A program made the position numbers and the translations under genes. The notes beneath the pieces are model-generated. The model had not been told where the DNA came from. It made no database searches and was given only the letters and a program-made list of their open reading frames with translations. This document shows positions 22,348 through 23,448 of a stretch of 64,000 nt of DNA, one piece after another. Numbering within the stretch: the first letter of the stretch is position 1; every line of letters starts with the position of its first letter. Location: assembly GCF_056746865.1 (NCBI RefSeq), contig NZ_CM163382.1. The stretch is one strand, 5' to 3'.

Positions 22348-23448
22348 TTAGAACTGATAGGTAATGCCCGTTGCGACGATGTTATCGGTGCGAATATCTA
22401 CGGCACGGGTAAAGTCGCTTTCATCAATCAGGTTGATTTTATAATCAACATAGGTCGACATATTTTTGTTGAAGAAATACGTCGCACCAACGTCGATATA
22501 CTCAATCATGTCCTGGTCGCCGTAGCGGCCCAGATCTCTGCCTTTCGATTTCAGGTAAGCGAGTGATGGGCGCAAGCCGAAGTCGAATTGATATTGTGCC
22601 ACTACTTCAAAACTTTGTGCTTTGTTAGAGATATAACCATCGCCATAGGTGGTCATGTTTAATGTTTCAGCGTAATTAGCTGCAAAGTAGATGTTGTTGG
22701 CATCATATTTTATACCTGTAGCCCACAGTTCTGCATTCTTACCGGAGGCATTGAGAGGATTAGCAGCGGCTCTTTCCTGCGCATTTGTCCGATCGGATTT
22801 GGTATACACCGCACCGATACCAAAGCCATCATAAACATAAGTTGAGGAGATACCGAAACCGTCACCATTGGCACGCGTGTAGTCAGCACCATAAAGATGA
22901 CCATTGTCAGTGCGTTCATTTTTGCCTTGATATTGCGCGGCAAAGTTCAGACCTTCAATTAAGCCGAAGAAATCGTAGTTGCGATAGGTTGCCACACCGG
23001 TAGTACGGTATGTCATGAAGACATCTTTCTGACTCCAGGTATCGCCACCAAATTCTGGCAACATATCGGTCCATGAACCAATGTCATAGCCGACACCGTA
23101 GTTACGACCATAGTCCAGAGAGCCAAATTCACTAATTTTTAAACCTGCATAGGCCAGACGGGTCTTGTTACCGCGCGAGCCGTTGGCTTCATCGTTATAG
23201 CCTTTAAAATCATATTCCCAGTGACCAAAACCAATCATTTGATCATTGATTTGCGTTTCTCCTTTAAAGCCGAGACGGGCATAAGTTTTATCACCATCGT
23301 CACGCTTATCATCAGTAAAATAACGTAGAGCGGTAACCTTGCCATAAAGGTCGAGTTTATTACCATCCTTGTTATAGACTTCGGCAGCGTGTGCTACGTT
23401 CGCAGCTAACAAACCAGTTACAACCACCGCAACTATTTTTAATTTCAT
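22348..23448 (-). CDS. Outer membrane general porin (OmpC/OmpF/PhoE family), intact; yddL-position
   Basis: 366 aa; signal peptide [38 protein letters not shown] start of mature porin, C-terminal ...ATGITYQF beta-barrel signature. Confidence 0.85.

What the first reader, a model, noticed from the sequence alone, without database searches (positions are those of the whole stretch)
22348..23448. Intact general porin gene at the yddL locus
From memory, the K-12 yddL locus is annotated as a short, apparently truncated porin-like gene; that status is not verifiable here. In this window the porin ORF is complete (366 aa with signal peptide and terminal Phe) and sits in the same AT-rich islet as the LRR genes. 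It may represent the ancestral state of the locus, or a horizontally acquired alternative porin.
Basis: partly seen in the sequence, partly recalled or inferred. Interest (0 to 1): 0.35.

Follow-up and report, generated by a model that had tools for sequence, protein, structure and literature searches.

The report
Intact OmpD-type porin; K-12 yddL remnant
This is a complete gene for an outer-membrane pore protein, the E. coli counterpart of Salmonella's OmpD, which laboratory strain K-12 retains only as a short broken stub called yddL; the gene was already reported in 2010-2011, so the finding is correct but ordinary.

Summary
Window 22348-23448 (-) is an uninterrupted 366-aa general porin with a signal peptide, all constriction-zone residues, a C-terminal Phe, a Shine-Dalgarno site and a terminator.

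- **K-12 remnant:** yddL is its first 93 codons plus 3 out-of-frame codons, left by a 1,538-bp deletion.
- **Identity:** The gene is the positional and phylogenetic orthologue of Salmonella/Citrobacter/Enterobacter OmpD. Every relative at >=68% identity lies in the same fdnGHI-yddG-porin-...-narU slot.
- **Ancestry:** E. albertii has the gene at 93% identity with no LRR genes beside it. The porin is therefore ancestral, and the LRR genes are a separate 2.9-kb AT-rich insertion that starts right after its stop codon.
- **Population:** About 21% of 5,426 complete E. coli genomes keep it (59 of 60 evenly sampled carriers annotated intact), 58% have the K-12 stub, and 21% have lost it entirely.
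- **Selection and expression:** dN/dS is 0.02-0.04. Weak codon bias (Nc 51 vs 36 for Salmonella ompD) and a broken MicC target site suggest a minor, conditionally expressed porin. Expression was not tested.
- **Prior art:** It was reported as EAEC 042 "ompD" Ec042-1601 (2010) and as z2239 in O-island 62 (2011). RefSeq mislabels it "ompC".

Interest is low.

The parts
22348..23448 (-). Intact porin CDS (366 aa, stop codon included). It is the E. coli orthologue of Salmonella OmpD, identical to EAEC 042 Ec042-1601 / WP_000768393.1 and allelic with O157 z2239.
23386..23448 (-). Signal-peptide codons 1-21 ([21 protein letters not shown]). This is the OmpD type, not the NmpC/Lc type.
   Evidence: Alignments. 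The cleavage site is inferred by alignment to the mature N-termini of solved porins.
23371..23382 (-). Codons 23-26 (GAAGTCTATAAC), the position of the MicC target in Salmonella ompD (GAGGTATATAAC). Two substitutions disrupt it here.
   Evidence: duplex energy -13.9, no better than shuffled sequence (-14.4). Salmonella scores -20.8, C. koseri -21.4, and the ompC control -26.5.
23449..23706 (-). The 258-bp yddG-porin intergenic region. It contains the Shine-Dalgarno AAGGA (23458-23462) and a promoter-proximal ~190 bp that aligns with Salmonella and C. koseri ompD upstream DNA. The distal ~300 bp present in those genera is absent.
   Evidence: The promoter itself is not mapped; only consensus-level candidates were found.
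22313..22336 (-). Intrinsic-terminator-like hairpin plus T-run, 12 nt after the porin stop codon. It lies inside the segment that has no counterpart in E. albertii.
21633..23170 (.). The 1,538-bp segment deleted in K-12-type genomes. It removes porin codons 94-366, the intergenic region and the N-terminal ~184 codons of LRR gene 1. The junction has ~3 bp of microhomology (CGG). This deletion creates yddL.
20660..21300 (.). A second, 641-bp segment deleted in K-12-type genomes. It fuses the middle of LRR gene 1 in frame to the first repeat of LRR gene 2 (ATTGA microhomology). K-12 yddK is therefore a chimera and not an insertion.
19480..22347 (.). The AT-rich LRR islet (~2.87 kb, 33-35% GC), present in E. 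coli and absent in E. albertii. It is inserted between the porin stop codon and the narU upstream region.
20919..22184 (-). LRR gene 1 (421-aa ORF). It corresponds to EAEC 042 orf1600 and is split into z2240/z2241 in O157.
19601..20896 (-). LRR gene 2 (431-aa ORF; probably starts at Met14). It is 90% identical to O157 EspR1, which NCBI names a T3SS effector.
23707..24588 (-). yddG (aromatic amino-acid exporter), the conserved upstream neighbour that defines the OmpD slot.
19476..23629 (.). The 4,154-bp segment missing in the third population state (~21% of genomes). In that state yddG and narU are 272 bp apart.

Best explanation
**What it is**
- The ORF is the E. coli orthologue of the enterobacterial porin OmpD, first characterised in Salmonella.
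- It is a Sec-exported, BAM-assembled, 16-stranded beta-barrel. By homology it should form trimeric, water-filled general-diffusion channels in the outer membrane. Loop L3 (PEFGGD, D113/E117 in OmpF numbering) folds into the lumen opposite a basic cluster (K16, R42, R82, R132) to form the constriction.

**History of the locus**
- The gene sits in its ancestral chromosomal slot immediately downstream of yddG, between fdnGHI and narU-narZ.
- The ancestral neighbours GFA-smvA-smvR were lost in the Escherichia lineage.
- A 2.9-kb AT-rich islet with two LRR genes (one is EspR1-like) was later inserted right after the porin stop codon in E. coli.
- Two illegitimate deletions then produced the K-12 arrangement: yddL is porin codons 1-93, yddK is an LRR1/LRR2 chimera, and yddJ is the tail of LRR2.
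- Other lineages lost everything between yddG and narU.

**Current status**
- Where retained (~21% of complete genomes, including EAEC 042 relatives and O157:H7/O55:H7/O145:H28), the gene is kept intact by purifying selection.
- Its weak codon bias and degraded MicC site suggest it has become a minor, conditionally expressed porin in Escherichia, comparable to PhoE or OmpN, and not a major porin as in Salmonella.

**Shown versus inferred**
- Shown: intactness, family, fold, orthology by synteny and tree, deletion anatomy, population frequencies and selection.
- Inferred: channel activity, trimerisation and expression level.
For: **Intact porin**
- Intact ORF and full-length Porin_1 match.
- 57-60% identity to solved OmpC/OmpK36/OmpF structures at E ~1e-127.
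- The AF2 model has 16 strands and TM 0.85-0.92 to 2J1N, 6RD3 and 1OPF.
- All constriction residues and the C-terminal Phe are conserved.

**Orthology to OmpD**
- Closest relatives outside E. coli are E. albertii (93%), C. koseri (78%) and Salmonella 'porin OmpD' (72-74%). Identity to K-12 OmpC/F/N/PhoE is 59-63%.
- NJ tree: 100/100 support for a clade with OmpD, NmpC and P0104 that excludes OmpC/N/F/PhoE, and 91/100 with the syntenic C. koseri porin.
- In the synteny screen of the 80 returned loci, every locus at >=68% identity with enough flanking DNA to judge (about 28) has fdnH-yddG upstream, and usually GFA/smvA/smvR/narU downstream. Among hits at <=64% only two carry fdnH-yddG flanks (L065, L067); the others do not.
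- The upstream ~190 bp aligns with Salmonella and C. koseri.

**Vertical descent**
- E. coli vs E. albertii: porin 92.6% aa identity against yddG 92.2%.
- E. albertii homology runs through the stop codon and resumes at narU upstream, so the LRR islet is excluded.
- Window vs O157: porin dS 0.079 against yddG 0.061.

**Selection and intactness**
- dN/dS is 0.044 within E. coli and ~0.024 against E. albertii.
- 1,118 of 5,426 genomes carry the 3' part, and 59 of 60 evenly sampled rows are annotated as an intact CDS.

**K-12 remnant**
-.

**Minor-porin inference**
- Nc is 51.4, against 35.7 (Salmonella ompD), 33.6 (C. koseri), 29.0 (ompC) and 46.3 (phoE).
- The MicC site is broken.
Against: - No expression, proteomic or electrophysiological data for this protein were found, so function rests on homology and selection.
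- Porin GC (44%) is lower than the flanks (50-54%) and lower than the Salmonella and Citrobacter orthologues (49-50%).
- dS against E. albertii is higher for the porin (1.59) than for yddG (0.86).
- In the tree the window porin groups with C. koseri and is not the outgroup to Salmonella + Citrobacter. Internal nodes of the OmpD/NmpC clade are weak (46-78%).
- A second, very different porin (P0104, 66% identity, synonymous sites saturated while the adjacent yddG has dS 0.22) occupies the same slot in other Escherichia. Allelic replacement at this slot therefore does occur.
- The AF2 model has low confidence at the L3 tip (residues 133-139, pLDDT < 50), so pore geometry cannot be read from it.
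Confidence: 0.85

Rival explanations
1. The porin arrived by horizontal transfer as part of the AT-rich island (EHEC O-island 62 and its EAEC equivalent) together with the LRR genes. This is the view of Okeke et al. 2011 and the first reader's alternative.
For: - The porin is adjacent to the 33-35% GC LRR genes, and its own GC (44%) is below the flanks.
- Okeke et al. treated z2239-z2242 as one recently acquired island.
- A different porin type sits at the same slot in other Escherichia, which shows the slot can be overwritten.
- The porin's dS against E. albertii exceeds that of yddG.
- The window porin clusters with C. koseri.
Against: - E. albertii has the same porin type (93%) with no LRR genes, and its homology to the window stops exactly at the porin stop codon.
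- The same slot is occupied by the closest homologues in at least five genera.
- Protein divergence equals that of yddG.
- Within E. coli, the porin's dS equals the flank's dS.
- 44% GC is normal for E. coli porin genes such as phoE.
- The upstream region is homologous to Salmonella ompD upstream DNA.
Confidence: 0.06
2. It is an intact-looking but effectively silent or decaying gene, on its way to the pseudogene state already reached in most E. coli, and contributes nothing to the cell.
For: - About 79% of complete E. coli genomes have truncated or deleted it.
- The closest relative of the window strain (SCU-105) has an IS3 inside it, and one E. albertii strain has an IS1.
- Codon bias is nearly absent (Nc 51).
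- The distal upstream region present in Salmonella is missing.
- The MicC site is degraded.
- No expression data were found.
Against: - dN/dS of 0.02-0.04 over both short and long divergence is incompatible with neutral decay.
- 59 of 60 sampled carriers are annotated as intact.
- The Shine-Dalgarno site, terminator and all structurally critical residues are retained.
Confidence: 0.08
3. It is a second copy or allele of OmpC, as RefSeq/PGAP labels it ('ompC: porin OmpC').
For: It scores 495 bits against the NCBIfam 'porin OmpC' subfamily model, whose cut-off is 484. All sampled RefSeq genomes carry this label.
Against: - It is only 61.7% identical to K-12 OmpC.
- It is excluded from the OmpC/OmpN branch with 100/100 support.
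- It is not at the ompC-micF-rcsD locus.
- EAEC 042 has a separate true ompC.
- Salmonella proteins in the same slot are named OmpD by NCBI.
Confidence: 0.01
4. It is an NmpC/Lc-type prophage porin. This is the K-12 counterpart assumed in the EAEC 042 genome paper, which aligned it with nmpC.
For: It is 68% identical to NmpC/Lc and falls in the same broad clade. Some sources call it 'outer membrane porin protein LC'.
Against: - There are no phage genes nearby, and it lies in conserved chromosomal synteny.
- The signal peptide is of the OmpD type, not the NmpC type.
- NmpC/Lc proteins form their own 100%-supported subclade.
- The true K-12 counterpart is yddL, with 93 of 93 residues identical.
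Confidence: 0.01

Closest known systems
Salmonella enterica OmpD (STM1572; NCBI 'porin OmpD')
   Same: - It occupies the same chromosomal slot directly downstream of yddG, between fdnGHI and narU.
- It is 72-74% identical and has the same signal-peptide type.
- The promoter-proximal region is homologous.
- The general-porin architecture is the same.
   Different: - The downstream neighbours are two LRR genes in place of GFA-smvA-smvR.
- The upstream region is shorter (258 vs ~524 bp).
- The MicC target in codons 23-26 is disrupted.
- Codon bias is much weaker (Nc 51 vs 36).
- Escherichia-specific substitutions occur at otherwise conserved positions. One example is Tyr147 at the OmpF G131 / PhoE K125 position next to R132.
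- The gene is present in only ~21% of E. coli genomes, whereas, from memory, ompD is near-universal in non-typhoidal Salmonella.
E. coli K-12 yddL (b1472)
   Same: The first 278 bp are 99-100% identical and sit at the same locus. YddL residues 1-93 equal porin residues 1-93.
   Different: yddL lacks codons 94-366 because of a 1,538-bp deletion. It ends in 3 out-of-frame codons read from the LRR gene. With only about 4 of 16 strands it cannot form a barrel.
EAEC 042 Ec042-1601 'ompD' (Chaudhuri et al. 2010) and O157 EDL933 z2239 in O-island 62 (Okeke et al. 2011)
   Same: Ec042-1601 is the identical protein (WP_000768393.1; the sequence printed in Fig. S12 matches). The O157 allele is 98% identical.
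   Different: - There is no difference in the gene itself.
- Those papers paired it with K-12 nmpC (2010), or regarded it as part of a recently acquired island with yddK as an insertion (2011).
- The present analysis reassigns the K-12 counterpart to yddL, places the porin outside the islet, and shows that yddK is a deletion chimera.
E. coli OmpC / K. pneumoniae OmpK36 (closest solved structures: 2J1N, 6RD3)
   Same: 57-62% identity. TM-score 0.85-0.92, with the same 16-strand barrel and conserved constriction residues.
   Different: It is a different paralogue (tree) at a different locus. The external loops differ. No OmpD-group structure is in the PDB copy searched.
NmpC / phage Lc porins
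   Same: Same broad OmpD/NmpC clade, ~68% identity.
   Different: NmpC/Lc proteins are prophage-borne, have a different signal peptide, and form a separate well-supported subclade.

Membership tests
General bacterial porin family (Pfam PF00267 Porin_1; OmpC/OmpF/PhoE type) | Full-length match to the family profile above the curated cut-off | tested here: met
   448.6 bits against a cut-off of 23.7, covering profile positions 1-337 of 337.
General bacterial porin family (Pfam PF00267 Porin_1; OmpC/OmpF/PhoE type) | 16-stranded antiparallel beta-barrel fold | tested here: met
   The AF2 model (pLDDT 75.7) has 16 long strands. TM-score is 0.85-0.92 to OmpC, OmpK36 and OmpF crystal structures. This is a prediction, not an experimental structure.
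General bacterial porin family (Pfam PF00267 Porin_1; OmpC/OmpF/PhoE type) | L3 constriction loop (PEFGGD) with acidic D113/E117 facing the basic cluster K16/R42/R82/R132 (OmpF numbering) | tested here: met
   All of these residues are conserved in the alignment. Loop geometry was not assessable because the L3 tip has pLDDT < 50.
General bacterial porin family (Pfam PF00267 Porin_1; OmpC/OmpF/PhoE type) | N-terminal Sec signal peptide and C-terminal aromatic residue (Phe) for outer-membrane assembly | tested here: met
   A 21-residue hydrophobic leader ending AHA|AE aligns with known cleavage sites. The protein ends in YQF. No dedicated signal-peptide predictor was available.
General bacterial porin family (Pfam PF00267 Porin_1; OmpC/OmpF/PhoE type) | Trimer formation and non-specific diffusion-channel activity | not testable with these tools
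   This needs purification with planar-bilayer or liposome-swelling assays.
OmpD orthologue group (Salmonella STM1572 type) | Chromosomal position immediately downstream of yddG, between fdnGHI and narU-narZ | tested here: met
   The arrangement is seen in the window, Salmonella, C. koseri and E. albertii, and in about 28 further species loci.
OmpD orthologue group (Salmonella STM1572 type) | Closer in sequence and tree to OmpD-slot porins than to OmpC, OmpF, PhoE or OmpN | tested here: met
   72-78% identity against 59-63%. The clade has 100/100 support, and the grouping with the C. koseri syntenic porin has 91/100. NJ only; no ML tree was built.
OmpD orthologue group (Salmonella STM1572 type) | Divergence consistent with vertical descent alongside the flanking genes | tested here: met
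   E. coli vs E. albertii: porin 92.6% aa identity against yddG 92.2%. Within E. coli: dS 0.079 against 0.061. Caveat: the porin's dS against E. albertii (1.59) is higher than yddG's (0.86).
OmpD orthologue group (Salmonella STM1572 type) | MicC sRNA target within codons 23-26. This is a regulatory trait described for Salmonella ompD (recalled from memory: Pfeiffer et al. 2009) and is not a defining feature. | tested here: not met
   The 12-bp site is recovered in Salmonella and C. koseri (-20.8 and -21.4 kcal/mol). The window and E. albertii carry two disrupting substitutions, and the energy equals the shuffled mean. This is a prediction only.
OmpD orthologue group (Salmonella STM1572 type) | Major, abundant porin (using strong codon bias as a proxy) | tested here: not met
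   Nc is 51.4 for the window gene, against 35.7 (Salmonella ompD) and 33.6 (C. koseri). This is an indirect proxy, and abundance itself was not measured.
OmpC (NCBIfam NF007841 subfamily; the RefSeq label) | Score above the curated subfamily cut-off | tested here: met
   495.3 bits against a cut-off of 484. The model is typed as 'subfamily', not 'equivalog'.
OmpC (NCBIfam NF007841 subfamily; the RefSeq label) | Orthology to ompC: the ompC-micF-rcsD locus and grouping with OmpC in a tree | tested here: not met
   K-12 ompC lies next to micF and rcsD. The window gene lies next to yddG and is excluded from the OmpC/OmpN branch.
NmpC/Lc prophage porins | Prophage context and the NmpC-type leader (MKKLTVAISAVAASVLMAMSAQA) | tested here: not met
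   There are no phage genes in the neighbourhood. The leader is of the OmpD type. NmpC/Lc form a separate 100%-supported subclade.

The most novel reading that the evidence does not exclude
In Escherichia the ancestral major porin OmpD has been converted into a minor, niche-specific porin.

- **Signs of conversion:** relaxed codon bias, a shortened upstream region, a lost MicC site, and lineage-specific changes at the constriction such as Tyr at the OmpF-G131 / PhoE-K125 position.
- **Proposed consequence:** its three-state polymorphism (intact in the EAEC 042 and O157:H7/O55:H7/O145:H28 lineages sampled here; stub in K-12-type genomes; clean deletion in others) would be adaptive. Loss would be selected by phage, colicin or antibody pressure, and retention by a permeability or host-interaction benefit in particular pathotypes.
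- **Possible link:** retention might be coupled to the adjacent EspR1-like LRR effector genes.
Probability: 0.2. Interest if true: 0.4.

Novelty: already known. Interest (0 to 1): 0.18.

Why it matters
The value is mainly in tidying annotation.

- **Mislabelled gene:** About 1,100 complete RefSeq E. coli genomes carry this gene under the symbol 'ompC', so they appear to have two ompC genes. 'ompD' would be the correct name.
- **K-12 wreck:** yddL, yddK and yddJ in K-12 are the remains of ompD and two LRR genes. They are not three small genes with functions of their own. A 2023 paper still speculated about a role for the 96-aa YddL.
- **Practical relevance:** Porin repertoire affects antibiotic entry, phage and colicin receptors and antigenicity. 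An extra, selectively maintained porin in lineages that include EAEC 042 and O157:H7 is therefore worth knowing about in resistance or vaccine studies. Salmonella OmpD is a protective antigen according to the work cited.
- **Limit:** None of this changes any concept.

Tried and rejected
- **First bootstrap run:** it gave meaningless zeros because the replicates were not rooted consistently. It was redone with bipartition counting.
- **Metagenome protein P0001 (85% identity):** dropped from the tree. It looks chimeric, with an N-terminal third from a different porin, and sits on a ~2-kb contig.
- **First guess at EAEC 042 coordinates:** it overshot the locus. The correct stretch was fetched.
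- **CAI:** it could not be computed because the reference index was missing from the Biopython installation. Wright's Nc was used instead.
- **Literature searches by accession and O157 locus tags:** these found no functional or expression data. Most 'Z2239' hits were unrelated strings.
- **ATCC 25922 'ompD' paper:** it refers to a gene annotated as 'porin protein LC' and listed among phage-like genes (bet, exo), so it was not taken as evidence about this gene.
- **The listing of cluster members:** it returned a cluster mixing this porin with LepA proteins. That looks like a database artefact, and only the names for the exact sequence were used.
- **Rfam scan of 18.5-25.5 kb:** it found only the fdnG SECIS element and no known RNA element near the porin.
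- **Promoter scan:** it gave only 9-of-12 consensus matches at about twice the shuffled background, so no promoter is claimed.
- **AF2 model:** it was not used to judge pore size because the L3 tip has low confidence.
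Full report
**Observation**

It matches Pfam Porin_1 end to end (E = 2e-134). It is 57-60% identical to solved OmpC, OmpK36 and OmpF structures. It has an AAGGA Shine-Dalgarno sequence 9 nt before the ATG. A GC-rich hairpin plus T-run follows 12 nt after the stop codon. The neighbours are yddG and fdnG(Sec)HI on one side and two LRR genes followed by narU-narZ on the other. The window is a close relative of EAEC 042, 99.9% identical over 28 kb but not identical.

**K-12 status**

- RefSeq marks yddL in K-12 as 'porin, incomplete, missing C-terminus'. MG1655 lists it as a 96-aa CDS next to yddK and the pseudogene yddJ.
- Pairwise mapping shows two deletions in K-12 relative to the window.
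  - The first removes 21633-23170 (1,538 bp, ~3-bp junction microhomology). It takes out porin codons 94-366 and the start of LRR gene 1.
  - The second removes 20660-21300 (641 bp, ATTGA microhomology). It fuses LRR1 to LRR2 in frame.
- YddL therefore consists of porin residues 1-93 plus KNL*. yddK is an LRR1/LRR2 chimera, and yddJ is the tail of LRR2.

**What the gene is**

Identity to the K-12 paralogues is 59-63% (OmpC, OmpF, PhoE, OmpN). Identity is much higher to E. albertii (93%), C. koseri (78%) and proteins that NCBI names 'porin OmpD' in Salmonella (72-74%).

In a bootstrapped NJ tree the protein falls in a 100/100 clade with Salmonella/Citrobacter OmpD, NmpC/Lc and a further Escherichia porin. 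OmpC, OmpN, PhoE and OmpF are excluded. It pairs with the C. koseri porin at 91/100.

Synteny decides the matter.
- In Salmonella, C. koseri and E. albertii the closest homologue lies directly after yddG, between fdnGHI and narU.
- In a species-wide scan, every locus at >=68% identity that had enough flanking DNA to judge showed fdnH-yddG-porin-(GFA)-(smvA-smvR)-narU. These came from Escherichia, Citrobacter, Enterobacter, Lelliottia, Intestinirhabdus and S. arizonae.
- Hits at <=64% were paralogues elsewhere, apart from two loci that also carry fdnH-yddG flanks.
- The ~190 bp upstream of the ATG also align with Salmonella and C. koseri.

The gene is the E. coli orthologue of OmpD.

**Ancestral or acquired**

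- E. albertii aligns with the window continuously from fdnG through the porin stop codon (22350). Homology resumes at 19479 in front of narU, and only 112 bp lie between these points in E. albertii.
- The LRR islet is therefore the 2.87-kb segment 19480-22347 (33-35% GC), and the porin lies outside it.
- Porin and yddG show equal protein divergence between E. coli and E. albertii (92.6% vs 92.2%). They also show similar dS between the window and O157 (0.079 vs 0.061).
- The porin's 44% GC is ordinary for E. coli porin genes (phoE 44.7%).
- These results support vertical inheritance and argue against the earlier view that the whole 'O-island 62', porin included, was recently acquired.
- Some evidence points the other way. 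The porin's dS against E. albertii is higher than yddG's. Internal tree nodes are weak. A 66%-identical porin (P0104) replaces it at the same slot in non-coli Escherichia, whose yddG is only dS 0.22 away.

**Population picture**

| State of the locus | Genomes (of 5,426 complete) | Share |
|---|---|---|
| Carry the part of the gene K-12 lacks | 1,118 | 20.6% |
| Only the 278-284-bp stub | ~3,150 | 58% |
| No porin sequence; clean 4,154-bp gap (23629→19476) leaves yddG and narU 272 bp apart | ~1,160 | 21% |

- Among carriers, 59 of 60 evenly sampled rows are annotated as an intact CDS.
- Carriers include EAEC 042 relatives and O157:H7, O55:H7 and O145:H28.
- Occasional carriers are disrupted by IS elements: IS3 in SCU-105, the window's nearest relative, and IS1 in one E. 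albertii strain.

**How it most likely works**

By homology it is a Sec-exported, BAM-inserted, trimeric 16-strand general-diffusion porin.
- The AF2 model (pLDDT 75.7) superposes on OmpC, OmpK36 and OmpF at TM 0.85-0.92.
- K16, R42, R82, R132, D113, E117, the PEFGGD loop and the terminal Phe are all conserved.
- dN/dS of 0.044 within E. coli and ~0.024 against E. albertii shows the protein is under selection.

Three observations suggest it is not the abundant porin that OmpD is in Salmonella.
- Codon bias is almost absent: Nc 51, against 36 in Salmonella, 34 in C. koseri, 29 for ompC and 46 for phoE.
- The distal ~300 bp of upstream DNA are missing.
- The MicC pairing site in codons 23-26 is disrupted. 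It is recovered computationally in Salmonella and C. koseri, and the ompC control also works.

I infer a minor, conditionally expressed porin. This step is inference, and no expression data were found. An Escherichia-specific Tyr sits at the OmpF-G131 / PhoE-K125 position beside R132 and could affect the constriction. The model is unreliable there, so I draw no conclusion.

**Comparison with what is known**

The gene has been described before.
- Chaudhuri et al. 2010 listed 'an apparently functional ompD (Ec042-1601)' in EAEC 042. The sequence in their Fig. S12 is identical to the window protein, but they aligned it with K-12 nmpC.
- Okeke et al. 2011 described z2239-z2242 / orfs 1601-1599 as O-island 62. 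They noted that yddL resembles the 5' end of z2239 and proposed that K-12 was disrupted 'by insertion of yddK'.
- Tantoso et al. 2023 still discussed the 96-aa YddL as a possible four-strand membrane protein.
- RefSeq labels the intact gene 'ompC' because it just passes a broad subfamily model (495 vs 484 bits).

The present analysis adds several refinements.
- Orthology to OmpD is shown by synteny across genera.
- The porin lies outside the LRR islet.
- yddK arose by deletion and fusion.
- Population frequencies are quantified.
- There are signs of down-shifted expression.

**Verdict**

The gene is a known kind of thing and has itself been reported already. Interest is low (0.18). The value lies in correcting annotation: ompD instead of ompC, and yddL/K/J as a wreck of three genes.

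Noticed in passing
window 8735-10092: An IS3-family element (orfA 176 aa, orfB 240 aa) lies between nhoA and yddE. It is absent from the otherwise 99.7-99.9% identical EAEC 042 sequence.
   Followed up: partly
window 19601-20896 and 20919-22184: Both LRR genes are intact here. LRR2 is 90% identical to O157 EspR1, which NCBI names a T3SS effector. LRR1 is a 29%-identical paralogue that is split by a frameshift in O157 (z2240/z2241) and is unannotated or pseudogenised in several RefSeq records. Whether they are secreted in an EAEC-042-like strain was not examined.
   Followed up: partly
L016/L017 6001-7116 (protein P0104): A different porin (371 aa, 66% identity, synonymous sites saturated) occupies the same yddG-adjacent slot in non-coli Escherichia genomes whose yddG is only dS 0.22 from the window. 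It is followed by a GFA gene and a benzoate/catechol-degradation cluster. It is absent from all 5,426 complete E. coli genomes. This points to allelic replacement at the slot; the species identity of those genomes was not determined.
   Followed up: partly
L020 (1.9-kb contig labelled Collinsella MAG) and protein P0001: A porin whose first ~110 residues resemble another porin type (leader MKRKVLAMLVPALLVAGAANA, like OmpC/Ec042-2121) is fused to the window-type remainder. It is followed by LRR1 at 100% identity. It is either a natural recombinant allele or an assembly chimera, and it is clearly E. coli DNA mis-binned into a Collinsella MAG.
   Followed up: no
E. coli plasmids of 92-116 kb (hits H141-H152): Eighty-one of the places matching the P0104 gene query are on plasmids; the twelve best hits are on plasmids of about 92-154 kb and carry a porin gene annotated 'ompC', ~73% identical in DNA to the P0104 gene. 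Their size suggests phage-plasmids, but this was not checked.
   Followed up: no
RefSeq annotation of the window gene across ~1,100 genomes: PGAP assigns the gene symbol ompC to this OmpD orthologue, so these genomes carry two genes called ompC. Salmonella orthologues in the same slot are named OmpD.
   Followed up: yes
L015 (strain SCU-105) 2753-5189; L008 (E. albertii CP034213) 7137-9014: There are independent IS disruptions of the porin: IS3 in the window's closest sequenced relative and IS1 in one E. albertii strain. The E. albertii type strain is intact.
   Followed up: partly
window 19475-19479 vs L099 and L019: The right-hand breakpoint of the complete-deletion state (19476) nearly coincides with the right boundary of the LRR islet (19480). 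The 9 unaligned bases at the junction resemble the E. albertii spacer. That lineage may never have had the LRR islet and may simply have lost the porin. The evidence is too short to decide.
   Followed up: partly
window 24820-27867 (+), SECIS at 25402-25460: fdnG appears as two ORFs split by the in-frame UGA selenocysteine codon. A strong SECIS_3 match (84 bits) lies at the junction. This is expected and already known.
   Followed up: yes
(database look-up, not the window): The 90%-identity cluster returned for this porin also contains 603-aa LepA/EF4 proteins from Roseburia. This looks like a clustering or index artefact in the protein collection.
   Followed up: no
L018 36408-36686 (EAEC 042), L008 392-670 (E. 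albertii); the window equivalent lies about 5 kb beyond fdnI: EAEC 042 and E. albertii carry a RelE/HigB-type toxin gene next to yddM (the HigA antitoxin). The K-12 record lists yddM alone, which suggests an orphan antitoxin in K-12.
   Followed up: no
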